DNA from: a phage
Length of the DNA: 46,785 nucleotides
Direction: 5' to 3' (one strand)
Assembly (NCBI GenBank): GCA_029337695.3
Contig: GCA_029337695.3_4851.1
Shown here one piece after another: positions 739 through 7,290 of this stretch (position 1 is the stretch's first letter; each line of letters begins with the position of its first letter). The notes under the pieces are model-generated. The model was not told the DNA's origin. It saw nothing but the letters and a program-made list of their open reading frames with translations, and searched no databases. The translations under genes were made by a program, and so were the position numbers.

Positions 739-1136
739 TGCCAGCAAAATTAAGAGGTGTCAGGCAGGCCGTAGAGAGAACTTCGCAAATTGTGGATGAA
801 ATAATCGCCACGAAAGCTGTGCGTGCTCTGAAGTCAGCGACATACATCATCCGCACTGAGTCAGCCACGTTGACGCCGATTGATACATCGACGCTGATTA
901 ACAGTCAGTTTGATACTGTGGAAGTTAGCGGAACTCGAATCACTGGCAAGGTTGGCTATTCTGCAAAATATGCGCTGTACGTCCACAATGCCAGCGGTAA
1001 ACTTTCAGGTAAGCCGCGCAGCAATGGTAACGGCACGTATTGGTCGCCGAATGCTGAACCTAGATTCTTAACAAAGGCTGCCGATAAAACTCGCAGCCTC
1101 GTTGATTCAGTGATAAAAAAAGAAATGAATATTTAG
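738..1136 (+). CDS. putative neck/tail component (HK97 gp10-like)
   Basis: 132-aa ORF whose start overlaps the upstream stop; synteny with head-tail joining genes. Confidence 0.4.
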   Translation: MPAKLRGVRQAVERTSQIVDEIIATKAVRALKSATYIIRTESATLTPIDTSTLINSQFDTVEVSGTRITGKVGYSAKYALYVHNASGKLSGKPRSNGNGTYWSPNAEPRFLTKAADKTRSLVDSVIKKEMNI

Positions 1137-1624
1137 CCGTGGTTTGCGAACTCCAAAAACAGTTCATCTACTTTTTTGCAATAGGCTTTATGGGCGGCTT
1201 CTTTGTCTGAAAACCTACCAAGATGATAGCTTTTCCCATGCATCTTTACCGTGGCTCTCCATTTTCCCGTGTACTTGCAAAAATGAACTCCTTTATATCC
1301 AGGCGTGTTTGATTTAGATATCTTTGTGTTCCTTGCGTTCTCGCAGTCACTGGCCTCCCTCAGATTTGAAATTCTATTGTCATCACGAATATTGTTTATG
1401 TGATCAATTTCATGCTCAGGGACATATCCATAATGGATAAACCAAGCCACTCGGTGCGCCCTTAATCTTTTCTTCCCAAGCGTTATGTATCCTGCGTCGT
1501 TGTGATAATTTGCAATATCACCTTTTGATATTTTCCCGCAACTTACAGCCCAGGTGAACAATCCGGTAATATGGTCGTATTTAACTCTTGACGCGATTGC
1601 TATGTAATCCCGCTCTGAAATCAT
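1133..1624 (-). CDS. HNH homing endonuclease with AP2 DNA-binding domain
   Basis: HNH motif HEIDHINNIRDDNRISNL plus C-terminal AP2-like YKGVHFCKYTGKWRATVKMHGKSYHLGRFSDKEAAHKAY; opposite strand to the flanking structural genes. Confidence 0.8.
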   Translation of the reverse strand: MISERDYIAIASRVKYDHITGLFTWAVSCGKISKGDIANYHNDAGYITLGKKRLRAHRVAWFIHYGYVPEHEIDHINNIRDDNRISNLREASDCENARNTKISKSNTPGYKGVHFCKYTGKWRATVKMHGKSYHLGRFSDKEAAHKAYCKKVDELFLEFANHG

Positions 1625-1643
1625 TTACTCACTCCAAAAGGGA

Positions 1644-1698
1644 AACGCCCCTGTCAGGTGGAACATGGTTGCAACAAAACCATACTGACAAGGGCGTT
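1644..1698 (-). other. 14-bp stem / 27-nt loop hairpin in the HNH 5' leader
   Basis: AACGCCCCTGTCAG (1644-1657) pairs with CTGACAAGGGCGTT (1685-1698); perfect with one G-U on the minus-strand transcript, 20 nt upstream of the HNH start. Confidence 0.5.
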
Positions 1699-1753
1699 AA
1701 ATTCATTGTTGCCTGTGTGTCGTTTCGGGTTCCACGCCTACGTGACATAGGTA

Positions 1754-2170
1754 GTGTATGATATGTGCATCGATATTGCAATATTGGGGTTTAATATGAA
1801 CATGCTTGAGCTTGTTGATGCATATCTTCAGGATGCCGGATTGTATGATGGCTGGACTTCACAGTTGCAGTTCTGGAATGACACCGGAGACGGCAATGAG
1901 CAATTTATTGTTCTGCAATCCAATGGTGGCACGCAGGTGATGAATGGCCTCGGCGGTGACTTTTATTTCTCGCTGTATGTTGTCGGCAAACATGGACAGT
2001 ATAACGTGTCGGATGTTGATGCTAAAGCCAATGAGATTATCGAATACATCAAGACGCACCCGATTGATTCATGCGTTAACTACATCCAGTTGCAAGCGCC
2101 ACTCGGTAGACCAATGCTGACGGAAGAGAAAAGACCAGTACATGAGTTGCTTTTGCGGGTTGTGAAATAA
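1754..2170 (+). CDS. putative tail completion/terminator protein
   Basis: 138-aa ORF (alternative starts at about 1795 or 1801) between the neck genes and the major tail protein; followed by a terminator. Confidence 0.4.
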   Translation: MYDMCIDIAILGFNMNMLELVDAYLQDAGLYDGWTSQLQFWNDTGDGNEQFIVLQSNGGTQVMNGLGGDFYFSLYVVGKHGQYNVSDVDAKANEIIEYIKTHPIDSCVNYIQLQAPLGRPMLTEEKRPVHELLLRVVK

Positions 2171-2173
2171 ATA

Positions 2174-2194
2174 AAGCCGCATGAAGCGGCTTTT
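2174..2194. terminator. bidirectional rho-independent terminator
   Basis: AAGCCGC-atgaa-GCGGCTT stem with T-run on the plus strand and T-rich tract on the minus strand; sits between the + tail gene and the 3' end of the minus tRNA. Confidence 0.7.
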
Positions 2195-2198
2195 AATA

Positions 2199-2275
2199 TG
2201 GTGGACACGGAGGGATTTGAACCTTCAATCAGCCGATTATGAGTCGGTTGCTTTAACCAATTAAGCTACGCGTCC
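2199..2275 (-). tRNA. tRNA with CAU anticodon (Met or Ile2), CCA encoded
   Basis: Hand-folded 77 nt: acceptor GGACGCG/CGTGTCC (one G-U), D-stem GCTT/AAGC, anticodon loop CTCATAA, T-loop TTCAAAT, discriminator A, CCA. One mismatch each in the anticodon and T stems. Confidence 0.7.
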
Positions 2276-2382
2276 ATAAGTGCTGGTTTAAGCATTGCCA
2301 GCGTGCTTTCTTAACATCCAGCCCCGTAACCCATACATACCCCTACATATGATTGCGATAATGCTGGATGTTAAGTGTTGTG

Positions 2383-2476
2383 GCGACAGGAATCGAACCT
2401 GCTTCCATCGGTGCGCTGCCGATTACAGTACGCGCGGCGGTCAGCTACATGACTAGTATTTTCACTGTCGCCTATC
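2383..2476 (-). ncRNA. tRNA-like element (GGTTCGATTCC T-arm-like motif), non-canonical
   Basis: Minus strand reads GGCGACA...GCAGGTTCGATTCCTGTCGCCA with complementary ends, but I could not fold a canonical cloverleaf; possibly a degenerate or type II tRNA or a processing structure. Confidence 0.3.
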
Positions 2477-2756
2477 TGCTAGCTCGCCATTGAGCTTCAC
2501 CACAACGGAAAGAGCACTGAAACACACGTCTGTGTCGCCTGCGCAATGGGTTCGAGTTCCACTGATATGCGCCAATGCTCTTACCTGTTGTGTGCCGGTT
2601 ACGCGTCCGGCGTCTCTCGACCGCTAATTATTTTTGACTTCTTCAAATTGAGATTTCATTCATTTTGGTCACCTTCCTTTCAGAAAGTTGAAAACTCACG
2701 CATAAATCAATTCATATCTTAAGTAGACTTTAATCTACACCACAAAAATAGTAACT

Positions 2757-2776
2757 GTCAACACCTGTGATATAAT
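2757..2776 (+). promoter_or_regulatory. putative promoter with extended -10 (TGATATAAT) for the major tail operon
   Basis: TGTCAACACC...TGATATAAT about 40 bp upstream of the 2813 start; the same block recurs at 4150-4175; preceded by the AATCTACACCAC motif at 2732-2743. Confidence 0.5.
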
Positions 2777-2812
2777 CACCACGTTAGCAGCTAACACAAT
2801 TCGGAGATCGAA

Positions 2813-3529
2813 ATGGCTATTTGTGCAAATGATAAAGGCGTTCTGGTTGGTCGAATGACCAGACTGTTCCTTGCTGAAGGGTGCGGTGACGCAGTTCCGG
2901 ATGCAGAAGATTGGAAGTATTTAGGCTCAACCACCAGTAAAGGTGTTGACTACTCGCCACAGACCACTACGTCGGAAGCGGATACCGCTGGCGGTTTTGT
3001 TTCCACTCTCGTTACCAGTTCTGACATGACCATCAGTGCAGAGGTAGAAATCCGCAAGAACGACCCAAGCGATGAGTTTGGCTTCCACCGACTGGTTGAG
3101 ATTTACGCCACTGAACTGAAAGCTCGTCGCCAGCCTTCCTTGTGGGTGCGTCAGGTGACTGGTGCAACTATCGTTACCGCGTACTGCAACATTACCAGCA
3201 TCAGTTACGAAGGTGGCACCAACGACATCGTAACAGGCAGCCTTGAATTCAAGGTTTACGATTCTGACAGTGTCACCGTTGAAAGCCTTGAACCTCTGAA
3301 GTTCACTACAGACTTGCCATCAACTGACACGGCTGGCAGCCCGTTAACCGTTGCTGTTGAGGGTGGCGTCTCTCCTTACACCTACGTGTGGCGCAAAGAT
3401 GGCGTGGTTGTTGGTAGTGAATCTGGCGCAACGCTGACAAGTCCTACTGCTGGTGTATATACCGTTACGGTCACGGATTCGTCCACTGACCCGGAAATTA
3501 TTATCAGCACGGCGTGCACCGTATCCTGA
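2813..3529 (+). CDS. major tail protein with C-terminal Ig-like domain
   Basis: 238-aa ORF upstream of chaperone and tape measure; Thr/Ser/Val-rich C-terminus typical of Ig-like decoration domains; own promoter and terminator. Confidence 0.7.
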   Translation: MAICANDKGVLVGRMTRLFLAEGCGDAVPDAEDWKYLGSTTSKGVDYSPQTTTSEADTAGGFVSTLVTSSDMTISAEVEIRKNDPSDEFGFHRLVEIYATELKARRQPSLWVRQVTGATIVTAYCNITSISYEGGTNDIVTGSLEFKVYDSDSVTVESLEPLKFTTDLPSTDTAGSPLTVAVEGGVSPYTYVWRKDGVVVGSESGATLTSPTAGVYTVTVTDSSTDPEIIISTACTVS

Positions 3530-3535
3530 TAAAGA

Positions 3536-3563
3536 AAAAGCCCCGAAAGGGGCTTTGTTTTAT
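3536..3563. terminator. bidirectional rho-independent terminator
   Basis: AGCCCC-gaaa-GGGGCT hairpin flanked by A-run and T-run, between convergent genes. Confidence 0.75.
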
Positions 3564-3760
3564 TCTTGCGGTGGTTCTGGTGATTTAGCCCAATGGGTGG
3601 CTGGAATTCCGTGACAGCGGTCTAATTCACTAACAAATATCTTGCTGCCAATGTTGTCGACAACTTTACATACCGCAGTTCTAACGGCACCGCGAAATGA
3701 TGTAAGAACCATCTCTCCATCTTCAGGCATCTTCTCACTACACTTAATCCACTGGCTCAT
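3560..3760 (-). CDS. DUF551 domain protein
   Basis: MSQWIKCSEKMPEDGE...ATHWAKSPEPP matches the DUF551 pattern (WI...LPE...THW.PLPEPP). Confidence 0.65.
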   Translation of the reverse strand: MSQWIKCSEKMPEDGEMVLTSFRGAVRTAVCKVVDNIGSKIFVSELDRCHGIPATHWAKSPEPPQE

Positions 3761-3900
3761 ATCACCTTATCCTCATCAAAAATCACACCAATCACACGAA
3801 GCAAGTCTTTCGCCATGCGCTCAGCTTCTTCATATTCATAACCTGCATCGACATACAAGTCAGTGTAGGAAATCAGGTCTGCTTTTGTTTGCTCGTTCAT
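3757..3900 (-). CDS. small hypothetical protein (47 aa)
   Basis: MNEQTKADLISYTDLYVDAGYEYEEAERMAKDLLRVIGVIFDEDKVI; ATGA overlaps with both neighbours indicate translational coupling. Confidence 0.4.
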   Translation of the reverse strand: MNEQTKADLISYTDLYVDAGYEYEEAERMAKDLLRVIGVIFDEDKVI

Positions 3901-4091
3901 TTCTTGTCGCCACTTTTAACCAATGCCCAAACAAGTGCTGCAACCCACCCAATAAAGCTCCATCCGACAAGAATATTCAATACACAGATTGCGGTCGTAT
4001 TTGTGTGCTTTCTTTGCAATGCCACAAATGACGGGAGAAGATAAACAAATACAACCAATCCAGCAAAAAGCAACAAAATAACAACATCCAT
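3897..4091 (-). CDS. superinfection immunity (Imm-like) small membrane protein
   Basis: 64 aa with two hydrophobic segments; LLPSFVALQRKHTNTTAICVLNILVGWSFIGWVAALVWAL resembles the Imm superinfection-immunity family signature. Confidence 0.6.
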   Translation of the reverse strand: MDVVILLLFAGLVVFVYLLPSFVALQRKHTNTTAICVLNILVGWSFIGWVAALVWALVKSGDKK

Positions 4092-4149
4092 AATTCACCT
4101 CAGTCATATCTCGTTTAGATGACTTGAATCTACATCACCACCTCGCAGG

Positions 4150-4175
4150 TGTCAACACCACTGAGATGATATAAT
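4150..4175 (+). promoter_or_regulatory. putative promoter with extended -10 (TGATATAAT)
   Basis: TGTCAACACC...TGATATAAT block identical to 2757-2776, preceded by AATCTACATCACC at 4128-4140. Confidence 0.5.
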
Positions 4176-4195
4176 CAACATCAGTCAAATTCAGG

Positions 4196-4912
4196 ATGCA
4201 AAACATGAGCAATCGCACGCCACTAACAGAAATCGGGGAGATGCGCATCTCACTGGCTGATAAGAGTTTTTTCTTTAAGCCATCATTCCGTGCCATGAAT
4301 GAAATCGGCACACCAAAAGAAATTGTCGAGGTGTACGCCAGACTCAATGGCATTGATTATGTTGCGCCATTGCAGCACGTCGAATACCTGCCATTTGGCG
4401 CGCAGATGCAGGTCATGAAGACCATCAGTAAACCTGTGTATGGTCGCCATGTGCTGAGCGCGGCCTATATTGTCATGCAGTCATGCTGTGAAGATGATAT
4501 TTCTGTGCTGATTGGTGGGTGGAAGCCAACACCGCGCGGCGTGCGATACGTACCGGGCATCATGCCAGTGAGCGACATTATTATTATTGCGCGCAATCTG
4601 ATGCAGCACGGCATCATCGGCAAGTCACCACTCAAAGTGCCTGAGCGCCTGGAAGAGCAAGGCAAGAAAACCACAAACGAGTTTCATGCGTCGCAATACA
4701 TCATCTCAGCACGCACGCATTTCGACATGACGCGAGATGAGGCCGAAAACCTGTCCATGACAGAGTTTCAGATGATGATTAAGAATAAATATCCAGAGCC
4801 GAAAGGGTTAACGAAAGAAGAGCGCGCGGCAGAGTACGATCAGGCTAAAGCAGACCGTGAGCGCATGAAGGCACTGGCTGAACGCAAAGCGAAAAAAGCG
4901 AGGAATACATAA
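4196..4912 (+). CDS. putative tail assembly chaperone
   Basis: 238-aa ORF between major tail protein and tape measure; basic C-terminus; no separate frameshift ORF apparent. Confidence 0.45.
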   Translation: MQNMSNRTPLTEIGEMRISLADKSFFFKPSFRAMNEIGTPKEIVEVYARLNGIDYVAPLQHVEYLPFGAQMQVMKTISKPVYGRHVLSAAYIVMQSCCEDDISVLIGGWKPTPRGVRYVPGIMPVSDIIIIARNLMQHGIIGKSPLKVPERLEEQGKKTTNEFHASQYIISARTHFDMTRDEAENLSMTEFQMMIKNKYPEPKGLTKEERAAEYDQAKADRERMKALAERKAKKARNT

Positions 4913-7289
4913 TGGCTGAAGAAGTCGGCGGAATTGTCTATGAAGTCGGGATGGATGTTAAAGGCCTGAAAGCTGGCGCGACAACAGCCAATAAGACTTT
5001 AGATGACCTTGAATCATCAACCAACAAAACCACAAGCGCCCTTGGCAAGCTGGATAAAAACGCCAGAAATGCTGGCAGCGGAATGAAAAATGCTGGCGGC
5101 GCAGCTTCAGGGCTAAAAACCAGCCTGTCGATGCTGGCTGGCGCAATATCCGTGTCACTGATTATCGAATGGGGAAAGCGATTCCTTGAGGTTGCAGATA
5201 ACATGACGCAGCTTCAGGCAAGGATTGCTCGCCTGTCAACTGACGCAAAAACCGCGAACGAAACATTCAGCTCACTGGCAAATATCGCCTCAACCACTGG
5301 CGCAAGTCTCAGCGACACCACGAAGCTGTGGGAAACATTGACGTCATCACTGAAAGAGGCTGGCGCGACAAATGCGCAGATTCTTAACCTTACAGATACC
5401 CTGCAAAAAATAGGTCGAATTGGCGGGTCATCAACCGAAGAAATGGCGAATGCATTACGTCAGTTCGGTCAGTCAATAGCATCTGGCACAATCCGCGCAG
5501 AAGAGTTCAACTCCATCCTTGAGCAGATGCCTGAACTTGCACGCCAGATAGCCGCTGGGCTTGGCATTTCAATGGGTGAACTTCGGGCCAGAATGCTTGA
5601 CGGAAAATTGACGGCAGAAGATGCACTAAATGCCATTCAGGACAGGACAAGCGTCGTTAATGCTGAGTTCGCAAAGCTACCGCGCTCTATATCTCAGGCG
5701 ACTGGCAGTCTTGAAACATCATTTGCAAAAATGATAGCAAGCATAAACGAAGCAACTGGAGCCAGTTCTACCTTTGTTTCAGTTATTGACTCTATTACCT
5801 CAGCAATCAACAGGCTAACTGGTCAGACCATAGGTGCGGCAGAGGTTATTTCTGATTTGACGTCAACTGCCGAAATGTTCAGTCGCAGAGCGAGAACTTG
5901 GTCATGGGTCGGCATTGACGGATGGGCGGCACAAAATCAGGCAATAGCGGCGGTAGCAAATCAGGCTGCAACTTTGGTATCAGACATGGATGCTGTCACC
6001 AAATCGACAGGGGAGGCAGCAAAGGCGCAAGCGCACTTGACAGTGCCAAAAGCAGCAGAGAAAGAGAAAAAGAAAAAAGCAACAGGCAAAAGCGCCGAAG
6101 AACGACAGGCTGAGTCAGTTGCTGAAAAGCTGGAGAAATTACGCCAGCAAACCATGCTCAATGCCACATCTACCAGCGAACTATCCCGCGAGCAAGCAAT
6201 TCTCAACGCGCAGCAATCGCTTGGCAAAGCTGCCACTCAGGAGCAAATAAAACTTGCTGGCGAGTACGCTGCGAAGATTTGGGACCAGAAGAATGCACTG
6301 AAGGAGCAGGCAGAAGCGGAGAAGGAAAAGCAGCGCATAGAAAAATCATATCAGGGGTTGCGCGCTATTGCGTCACCAACGACTGGCATTGACAGTGAAT
6401 ACCAGCAACGCATGGCTGACCTTGATGCCTACGCCGCAGCATATCCGCAGAAAATTACGGAGATTGAGCAGACTCGCGCAGCAATTGAAGCACAATACCG
6501 CCAGCAGCGAATGGACGCCATGTGGGCTGAGTGGCAGCAACAAAGCCTAGGTGCGCAACTGTTCGGTACCGCTCTTGATTCAGCAATGAGTACGGCATCA
6601 AACAGCATCACCGGATTGCTGACAGGCACAATGAGCGTTCAGGATGCCATGCGCAGTCTCGGCTCTACGGTGCTGAACTCTCTGGTAAACAGTTTCGTCG
6701 AGATGGGCGTGCAGTGGGTAAAATCTGCCGTTATGGGACAGACTGCACAGGTTGCGGCTACGGCAACCACAACGGCTGCGCAAACGGCAGGGCTGGCAAC
6801 AACAACAGCAGCATCGACGGCGGCAGCAGCCACCACCACGGCGGCATGGACTCCAGCGGCAATCGTGGCATCAATCGGTTCATTCGGTGGTGCGGCCGCA
6901 ATTGGTGTAGGCGCTGTTCTCGGGGCGCTGGCAATGGGTGTCGCTGGAAAGCGAAAAAATGGCGGCTCAGTTAGTGCCGGAAGTATGTACGAAGTTGGCG
7001 AGGGAAACGCACCAGAAATATTCCAGGCCAGCACAGGCAGGCAATATATGATACCTGGCAATTCAGGTAAGGTTATCAGCAACAAAGACATTACCGGAAG
7101 TGGCAGTGGCTTGATTATAAATAATAATGTTTATAATAGTTCAAGCGGAGCAACAGCAACTACCAGCGCCAGAGATAATGGTGACGGCAGCGTGACAATT
7201 GAGACGATTGTGAGTGATATTTCGGAAAATGGCCCAATAGGGCAAGCCATTTCAAGAAACTACAATACCAACAGGAGAGCAACCGAATA

Positions 7290-7290
<1 letters not shown>
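4912..7290 (+). CDS. tail tape measure protein
   Basis: 792 aa, long helical/coiled-coil N-terminal region, Ala/Thr-rich low-complexity tract and hydrophobic Gly/Ala-rich segment; canonical position. Confidence 0.85.

What the first reader, a model, noticed from the sequence alone, without database searches (positions are those of the whole stretch)
3560..4091. Opposite-strand moron inside the tail module: superinfection immunity protein plus DUF551
Between the major tail protein terminator and the chaperone promoter, three coupled minus-strand genes are inserted against the structural transcription direction. One is an Imm-like two-TM protein of the type that blocks DNA entry of superinfecting phages; another is a DUF551 protein. 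This is a classic moron layout, unusual inside a tail operon, and may confer exclusion of competing phages.
Basis: partly seen in the sequence, partly recalled or inferred. Interest (0 to 1): 0.5.

Follow-up and report, generated by a model that had tools for sequence, protein, structure and literature searches.

The report
Antisense Imm gene island in tail module
A virulent Salmonella/E. coli-type siphophage carries, between its tail-tube and tail-chaperone genes, a small backwards-facing three-gene cassette whose first gene is a real homologue of phage T4's Imm protein, which blocks DNA entry of competing phages. The feature is real but is already annotated in well over a hundred related genomes, so it is ordinary.

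Summary
Three translationally coupled minus-strand genes lie at 3560-4091. They are bounded by a bidirectional terminator (3537-3556) and a conserved sigma-70-like promoter (4155-4127). This promoter sits back-to-back with an extended -10 promoter for the chaperone/tape-measure operon.

The promoter-proximal gene is a bona fide Imm_superinfect (PF14373) protein. It is 32% identical to T4 Imm, has two hydrophobic segments, and keeps the two residues (R27, W44) whose T4 equivalents are needed for exclusion. The last gene is DUF551.

Distant relatives have the two flanking tail genes directly adjacent, so the cassette is an insertion. Its content varies among Skatevirus genomes. All three genes are under purifying selection.

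The layout is not unusual. The original moron, HK97 gene 15, sits by the tape-measure gene and also blocks DNA entry, and Jerseyviruses place Imm at the same junction. The phage is virulent, so Imm probably acts during lytic infection as in T4, most likely by binding incoming tape-measure protein. No exclusion phenotype has been tested. Near-identical loci are already annotated publicly, so interest is low.

The parts
3537..3556 (.). Bidirectional intrinsic terminator (AAAGCCCC-GAAA-GGGGCTTT). It is flanked by an A-run and a T-run. It ends both the major tail protein transcript (+) and the island transcript (-).
   Evidence: One search finds it on both strands. The relatives Skate and ASO78B annotate terminators at the same place.
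3560..3760 (-). DUF551 protein, 66 aa; third and last gene of the cassette.
   Evidence: PF04448 E 6.6e-11; dN/dS 0.18. Relatives carry one of two allele types, 79-86% or 33-44% identical. The gene is deleted in a viable genome-reduced seszw mutant.
3757..3900 (-). 47-aa acidic protein (pI 4.1, net charge about -7.5), function unknown; conserved core of the island.
   Evidence: phrog_17424 E 3e-34 with no Pfam hit; dN/dS 0.052. Its hits have the same organism counts as all 153 Skatevirus-like records, plus about 50 Klebsiella, Vibrio and Aeromonas phage records. Charge.
3897..4091 (-). Imm-like superinfection immunity protein, 64 aa, two hydrophobic segments (about residues 1-27 and 32-59); first gene after the promoter.
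   Evidence: PF14373 E 1.2e-18 and phrog_1039 E 5e-24. BLASTP against T4 Imm gives 32% identity, E 3e-12. R27 and W44 (T4 R33 and W50) are invariant. Hydropathy. dN/dS 0.067.
4096..4101 (-). Shine-Dalgarno GAGGTG, 4 nt upstream of the Imm ATG.
   Evidence: Read from the sequence. Skate annotates a ribosome binding site at the equivalent place.
4127..4155 (-). Sigma-70-like promoter TTGACA-17-TAGATT that drives the cassette.
   Evidence: Both hexamers are largely conserved in the 41 distinct upstream sequences from relatives, with spacing kept as two versions. ASO78B annotates a promoter here.
4167..4175 (+). Extended -10 promoter element TGaTATAAT for the chaperone-position gene and the tape measure operon. 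It lies back-to-back with, and overlaps, the minus-strand promoter region.
   Evidence: Sequence; conserved in 41 relatives, with TGGTATAAT in two distant ones. A plus-strand promoter is annotated here in ASO78B.

Best explanation
This is a transcriptionally autonomous three-gene accessory cassette (Imm, then the 47-aa protein, then DUF551). It is inserted antisense between the major tail protein gene and the chaperone/tape-measure operon of a virulent Skatevirus-like siphophage.

Proposed mechanism:
1. Host RNA polymerase reads the cassette from a near-consensus sigma-70 promoter, probably early in infection (inferred).
2. The bidirectional terminator behind the tail-tube gene stops the transcript (sequence-level evidence).
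3. The first product, a 64-aa homologue of T4 Imm with two hydrophobic segments, inserts into the inner membrane (inferred).
4. There it prevents genome translocation by later-arriving virions of the same or related phages. By analogy with T4 Imm, it most likely does this by binding the membrane-inserting part of the incoming tape measure protein, so that no conduit forms (inferred from homology and conserved residues).

The other two genes are co-translated passengers of unknown function. DUF551 is dispensable in the laboratory. The 47-aa acidic protein is retained in every genome examined.
For: - Homology to Imm: PF14373 at 67 bits; T4 Imm itself scores 58 bits on the same model; pairwise E 3e-12.
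- R27 and W44 correspond to T4 R33 and W50, whose alanine mutants weaken exclusion. T4 Imm co-purifies with and binds the tape measure protein (bioRxiv 10.64898/2026.03.06.709160). Both residues are invariant across Imm homologues from myo-, sipho- and N4-like phages.
- Two hydrophobic segments.
- Conserved promoter, ribosome binding site, overlapping stop/start codons and terminator.
- Insertion relative to distant relatives, and variable content of the island.
- Purifying selection on all three genes.
- No integrase or repressor found; the genus is described as lytic (PMC12965234, PMC8185280).
- An analogous TMP-dependent inner-membrane exclusion protein, HK97 gp15, is encoded next to the tape measure gene.
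- Every Imm-less island in relatives carries another envelope-directed small protein.
Against: - No exclusion phenotype, localisation or transcription data exist for any Skatevirus or Jerseyvirus Imm. Literature searches found only annotations.
- The T4 tape measure protein and this siphophage's tape measure protein were not shown to be homologous in the region Imm binds.
- Imm presence and Imm sequence show no covariation with tape-measure variants.
- About a fifth to a third of close relatives lack Imm, so it is not essential.
- Promoter and terminator are consensus matches only.
Confidence: 0.6

Rival explanations
1. The Imm-like protein mainly protects the already infected cell envelope from damage by secondary adsorptions, or tunes lysis timing as a holin-like small membrane protein. 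On this reading it does not block entry of competitor DNA.
For: For T4, Imm is also implicated in resistance to lysis from without, in 'secondary traumatization' and in premature collapse of lysis inhibition, and has been said to resemble a holin (PMC6832632). The protein is a small two-segment membrane protein.
Against: The direct evidence in T4 is for blocked genome translocation and binding to the tape measure protein. The residues needed for that activity are conserved here. Relatives have a separate holin/endolysin/Rz cassette elsewhere.
Confidence: 0.15
2. The cassette is primarily a host-takeover or anti-defence unit. Its key product would be the universally retained 47-aa acidic protein, perhaps acting with DUF551, with Imm as an exchangeable accessory in one slot.
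For: - The 47-aa protein's hits have the same organism counts as all 153 Skatevirus-like records, and it extends to Klebsiella, Vibrio and Aeromonas phages.
- Imm at 60% identity or more is in only about 51 records.
- The 47-aa gene has the lowest dN/dS of the three (0.052) and is strongly acidic.
- It is kept in the smallest genome-reduced seszw mutant.
- DUF551 is a portable domain in early-region lambdoid proteins.
Against: No family, structure or motif links the 47-aa protein or DUF551 to any activity. DUF551 is dispensable. This reading does not conflict with Imm acting in exclusion.
Confidence: 0.2
3. The ORFs are chance or decaying reading frames in a non-coding spacer between tail genes.
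For: The ORFs are very short (47-66 aa). An antisense plus-strand ORF of 129 aa overlaps them.
Against: The profile hits are strong. dN/dS is 0.05-0.18 in the minus frames but about 2 in the frame of the plus-strand ORF. Ribosome binding sites and coupled start codons are conserved.
Confidence: 0.02

Closest known systems
Bacteriophage T4 Imm (immunity to superinfection; Pfam PF14373, phrog_1039)
   Same: Both belong to the same Pfam and PHROG family. The proteins are 32% identical over 62 residues, with the same two hydrophobic segments and conserved R and W residues needed for T4 exclusion. Both are encoded by virulent phages.
   Different: This protein is 64 aa against 83 aa in T4 and lacks the polar C-terminal tail. 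It is encoded in the tail module of a siphophage, not in an early-gene cluster of a myophage. Its target tape measure protein is unrelated in length and architecture. No Spackle partner is present in this window. Function is untested.
HK97 gene 15 moron (gp15, YebO-like inner-membrane superinfection exclusion protein)
   Same: Both are small inner-membrane proteins encoded by an autonomous insert in the tail operon, beside the chaperone and tape measure genes. HK97 gp15 blocks genome entry in a way that depends on the phage tail (PMC3594210; also cited).
   Different: No sequence relationship: no YebO-type hit appeared. HK97 is temperate and gp15 is expressed from the prophage. The HK97 insert lies between the chaperone and the tape measure gene, whereas here it lies between the tail tube and the chaperone, antisense, with three genes.
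Annotated islands of Skatevirus, Macdonaldcampvirus and related Klebsiella phages (for example BS5 gp31-33, Skate 057-059, Sf11, KFS-SE2, BUCT610)
   Same: These are the orthologous locus, with 82-97% identical Imm, 91-96% identical 47-aa protein, and the same promoter and terminator.
   Different: This window has the minimal three-gene version. Relatives add NinX/DUF2591, a 97-aa exported protein (phrog_2315) and/or a 91-aa tail-anchored protein, or replace Imm with the exported protein.
Jerseyvirus (Guernseyvirinae) Imm-like gene, for example phage dunkel gp37 and SeF1 Gp_027
   Same: A PF14373 protein, 41% identical, is the first gene of an antisense island between the major tail protein gene and the chaperone/tape-measure genes (PMC9409062).
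   Different: The flanking tail genes show no detectable similarity to those of the window. The rest of the island differs: a phosphoesterase and a DNA-binding protein, with no 47-aa or DUF551 gene.

Membership tests
Imm_superinfect (PF14373) / T4 Imm family | Profile HMM match above the curated threshold | tested here: met
   67.1 bits against a cutoff of 27.9, covering the full model 1-42. T4 Imm scores 58.2 bits on the same model. phrog_1039 E 5e-24.
Imm_superinfect (PF14373) / T4 Imm family | Small protein with two hydrophobic membrane segments | tested here: met
   64 aa. Kyte-Doolittle 19-residue windows above 1.6 cover residues 1-27 and 32-59, parallel to T4 Imm.
Imm_superinfect (PF14373) / T4 Imm family | Residues required for exclusion in T4 (R33, W50) | tested here: met
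   They align to R27 and W44, and are invariant in 7 diverse homologues. Mutant data come from bioRxiv 10.64898/2026.03.06.709160.
Imm_superinfect (PF14373) / T4 Imm family | Inner-membrane location, binding of the tape measure protein, block of genome translocation | not testable with these tools
   Needs expression, fractionation, pull-down and plating assays. Sequence covariation with the tape measure protein was looked for and not found.
DUF551 (PF04448) | Profile HMM match above the curated threshold over the whole domain | tested here: met
   43.3 bits against a cutoff of 22, model positions 1-68 of 68.
Moron (Juhala/Hendrix sense) | Extra DNA between genes that are adjacent in related phages | tested here: met
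   Thirteen relatives (L047-L059) with 43-50% identical major tail protein have a 49-83 bp gap, against 669 bp here and up to 1373 bp in close relatives.
Moron (Juhala/Hendrix sense) | Own promoter and terminator | tested here: met
   Tested at sequence level only. TTGACA-17-TAGATT hexamers are largely conserved in the 41 relatives' upstream sequences, and the stem-loop is bidirectional. No transcript data.
Moron (Juhala/Hendrix sense) | Base composition differs from the surrounding genes | tested here: inconclusive
   GC is 42.7% against 49.5-51.5% in the flanking tail genes, and GC3 is 0.37-0.44 against 0.48-0.57. However, 11% of same-size windows in the genome are as low.
Moron (Juhala/Hendrix sense) | Expressed from a repressed prophage to benefit the lysogen | tested here: not met
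   No integrase or repressor in the RefSeq relative or among the window's mid-size ORFs. Members of the genus are reported as lytic (PMC12965234, PMC8185280). The cassette works like a moron but in a virulent phage.
HK97 gp15 / YebO family | Sequence similarity to YebO-like proteins | tested here: not met
   The Pfam scan of all three proteins at E up to 0.1 gave only PF14373, DUF3302 and DUF551.

The most novel reading that the evidence does not exclude
Genes for small inner-membrane proteins that block genome entry by acting on the incoming tape measure protein may be placed repeatedly, and independently, next to the tape-measure operon of siphophages. Examples are HK97 gp15, Skatevirus Imm, and Jerseyvirus Imm in a non-homologous tail module. 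In the Skatevirus case the gene is read from a promoter that overlaps back-to-back with the chaperone/tape-measure promoter. The same 50 bp would then act as an early-exclusion versus late-tail switch. The slot would serve as a swap site for alternative envelope-directed exclusion proteins (Imm, the phrog_2315 exported protein, a tail-anchored protein).
Probability: 0.2. Interest if true: 0.5.

Novelty: already known. Interest (0 to 1): 0.22.

Why it matters
If the Imm homologue works as in T4, cells infected by this phage become closed to related phages. This matters for designing Salmonella and E. coli phage cocktails, since many Skatevirus and Jerseyvirus isolates are proposed for biocontrol. 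It also matters for competition between Imm-carrying and Imm-less relatives that share the same tape-measure variants. A siphophage Imm would be a second, simpler system for testing the recent claim that Imm acts by binding the tape measure protein. As a genome feature, however, it is a routine and already annotated accessory island.

Tried and rejected
1. DUF551 fold. Homologue search found only relatives at 74% identity or more. The AlphaFold2 model built from that alignment had mean pLDDT 48.6, so no fold search was run.
2. PDB sequence search for all three proteins found nothing, even at E up to 1-10. NCBIfam gave no hit above cutoff.
3. Imm-tape measure linkage. An apparent association between Imm presence and short tape measure proteins dissolved. 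The length variants differ only in the central region. Imm-plus and Imm-minus genomes share tape measure C-terminal clusters with no discriminating column. Mantel correlations of Imm with tape measure segments are -0.09 to 0.11 and not significant, whereas Imm correlates with the adjacent DUF6246 gene at r = 0.50.
4. The relatives' 97-aa exported protein as a Spackle homologue. It has the same length and a signal peptide, but no BLASTP or Pfam similarity to T4 Spackle.
5. The plus-strand ORF at 3642-4031 as a real gene is rejected.
6. An Rfam scan of 1600-4400 found only the tRNA.
7. Literature searches for experiments on Skatevirus or PF14373 proteins found annotations only. The supplementary gene-removability table of the seszw genome-reduction paper is not held.

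Full report
**What is there.** The window is essentially a complete genome of a Skatevirus-like siphophage. A 2.3-kb stretch around the finding matches 153 public phage records, nearly all at 90-95% identity. They are mostly Salmonella, Escherichia and Shigella phages of the genus Skatevirus.

At the stated coordinates there are three minus-strand ORFs: 3560-3760 (66 aa), 3757-3900 (47 aa) and 3897-4091 (64 aa). They are joined by ATGA stop/start overlaps. They lie between the major tail protein gene (2813-3529, phrog_853) and a DUF6246 gene in the tail-chaperone position (4196-4912). The 792-aa tape measure gene follows.

**Identity of the genes.**
- The 64-aa product matches Pfam PF14373 Imm_superinfect (E 1.2e-18, 67 bits against a cutoff of 27.9) and phrog_1039 'immunity to superinfection'.
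- I fetched T4 imm itself. It scores 58 bits on the same model and aligns with the window protein at 32% identity over 62 residues (E 3e-12).
- Hydropathy shows two hydrophobic segments in the same places as in T4 Imm.
- The 66-aa product matches DUF551 over the whole domain (E 6.6e-11).
- The 47-aa product has no Pfam or NCBIfam family. It matches only phrog_17424, of unknown function. It is strongly acidic, with pI 4.1.

**Are they real genes?** Across 10-32 distinct orthologous sequences, dN/dS is 0.067 for Imm, 0.052 for the 47-aa gene and 0.18 for DUF551. The major tail protein gives 0.053. The overlapping 129-aa plus-strand ORF shows dN/dS of about 2 in its frame, so it is an antisense artefact.

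**Transcription signals.**
- A G+C-rich stem-loop at 3537-3556, with an A-run on one side and a T-run on the other, is called as a terminator on both strands. The DUF551 stop codon lies 3 nt from it.
- Upstream of Imm there is a GAGGTG ribosome binding site and a TTGACA-17-TAGATT promoter at 4155-4127.
- That exact pattern occurs only twice in 46.8 kb, against 0.05 expected. The other copy heads a second antisense unit containing a tRNA-Met.
- A plus-strand extended -10 (TGaTATAAT, 4167-4175) points into the chaperone/tape-measure genes.
- In an alignment of 41 distinct upstream sequences from relatives, these elements are largely conserved. Where an extra gene is present, a second version of the spacer still gives TTGACA-18-TAGATT.
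- Curators of ASO78B and Skate annotated promoters and terminators at the same places.
- All of this is sequence-level evidence. I found no transcript data.

**It is an insertion, and a variable one.** I fetched 55 loci through the DUF6246 protein and mapped the interval between the two tail genes.
- Thirteen distant relatives (major tail protein 43-50% identical) have the two genes 49-83 bp apart.
- Close relatives have 668-1373 bp there.
- The content is combinatorial. It comprises DUF551 in two allele types (79-86% or 33-44% identical), an optional NinX/DUF2591 gene, the 47-aa gene, Imm, a 97-112-aa exported protein with a signal peptide (phrog_2315), and a 91-aa protein with a C-terminal anchor.
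- Of 36 non-redundant close loci, 28 have Imm. All 8 without it have the exported protein instead.
- In the phage database, Imm at 60% identity or more is in about 51 records. The 47-aa gene's hits have the same organism counts as all 153 records, plus about 50 Klebsiella, Vibrio and Aeromonas phage records.
- The island is lower in G+C than its tail-gene flanks (42.7% against 49.5-51.5%), but 11% of same-size windows in the genome are as low.

**Lifestyle.** A RefSeq relative has no integrase or repressor. The window's mid-size non-structural ORFs are recombination, replication, ParB-like and head proteins. Members of the genus are published as lytic (PMC12965234; PMC8185280). The cassette is therefore 'more DNA' with its own signals, but it cannot serve a lysogen. 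The better parallel is T4, where imm is an early gene of a virulent phage.

**Mechanism.** A 2026 preprint reports three things about T4 Imm. It co-purifies with a membrane fragment of the T4 tape measure protein. It binds that protein's helix-bundle domain. It loses activity with W50A or R33A (bioRxiv 10.64898/2026.03.06.709160). Those residues align with W44 and R27 of the window protein. They are invariant in an alignment of Imm homologues from T4, a Jerseyvirus, a Klebsiella siphophage, an N4-like phage and an Acinetobacter myophage.

I therefore propose that the window Imm sits in the inner membrane of the infected cell. There it stops later-arriving related virions from opening a tape-measure-dependent conduit. 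Homology and residue conservation are shown. Localisation, timing and phenotype are inferred.

I looked for a genomic signature of an Imm-tape measure relationship and found none. Imm presence is independent of tape-measure architecture and of C-terminal variant. Imm distances correlate only with the adjacent DUF6246 gene.

**Comparison with what is known.**
- The layout is not unusual. [quoted passage not shown] Its inner-membrane protein blocks genome entry in a tail-dependent way (PMC3594210).
- In Jerseyvirus phage dunkel, a 41% identical Imm is likewise the first gene of an antisense island between the major tail protein and the chaperone/tape-measure genes. Yet the flanking tail genes show no similarity to the window's.
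- In N4-like and Acinetobacter phages, Imm sits among early genes, as in T4.
- Orthologous genes are already labelled 'immunity to superinfection' and 'DUF551 domain-containing protein' in RefSeq and in published tables.
- No experiment on them was found.

**Other evidence.** Genome-reduced derivatives of the Skatevirus seszw (PMC9825161) include viable clones lacking the DUF551 gene but keeping the 47-aa gene and the exported-protein gene. DUF551 is described only as a portable domain in lambdoid early proteins such as an Ea22 variant and YfdS. A structure prediction for it was too poor to use. None of the three proteins has a relative in the PDB.

**Verdict.** The observation and the gene identifications are correct, and the moron-like reading is largely right. 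The feature is common, already annotated and mechanistically unsurprising. The remaining open point is experimental: whether a siphophage Imm excludes related phages, and whether it does so through the tape measure protein.

Noticed in passing
window 2199-2761 (minus strand): A second antisense unit lies in the tail module. The only other TTGACA-N-TAGATT promoter match in the window (2761-2732) lies upstream of a tRNA-Met (2275-2199). A weak tRNA-like remnant lies around 2375-2433. The relative ASO78B carries tRNA-Arg and tRNA-Ser at this spot.
   Followed up: partly
window 1133-1624 (minus strand): An HNH endonuclease with an AP2 domain (PF13392 E 8.5e-16, phrog_99) is inserted antisense between a tail-completion-type gene (738-1136) and the tail terminator gene (1754-2170). 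It is probably a homing endonuclease.
   Followed up: no
window 4912-7290 and loci L011-L046: The tape measure protein is 792 aa here but ranges from 778 to 1097 aa in close relatives, through indels in the central part. Its first 100 and last 260 residues differ by 38% and 24% on average. The neighbouring genes differ by 2-4%. This implies unusual diversification and possibly different tail lengths within one genus.
   Followed up: partly
loci L004 2233-2526, L007 1584-1877, L009 1424-1762: Many relatives carry a 97-112-aa protein with a signal peptide (phrog_2315) next to Imm or in place of it. Every Imm-less island has one. It has the same size and export signal as T4 Spackle but no detectable sequence similarity.
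   Followed up: partly
locus L068 (MZ375352.1, seszw_290S): In a viable 36-kb genome-reduced Skatevirus the DUF551 gene is deleted, while the 47-aa gene and the exported-protein gene are kept. The 47-aa gene's hits have the same organism counts as all 153 Skatevirus-like records, which include such mutants.
   Followed up: partly
locus L067 (Salmonella phage dunkel, Jerseyvirus) 2992-5859: An unrelated siphophage genus places a PF14373 Imm as the first gene of an antisense island at the same junction, between the major tail protein and the chaperone/tape-measure genes. The other cargo differs (a phosphoesterase and a DNA-binding protein).
   Followed up: partly
window 4193-4207: The chaperone-position DUF6246 gene more likely starts at ATG 4205 than at 4196. 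The AGGA ribosome binding site overlaps the first ATG, and relatives annotate a 708-nt gene.
   Followed up: no
locus L009 (Vi II-E1) 1238-1417: The annotated plus-strand 'membrane protein' VIP0030 of phage E1 lies antisense to an 87% identical copy of the 47-aa gene, so it is probably a mis-call.
   Followed up: partly
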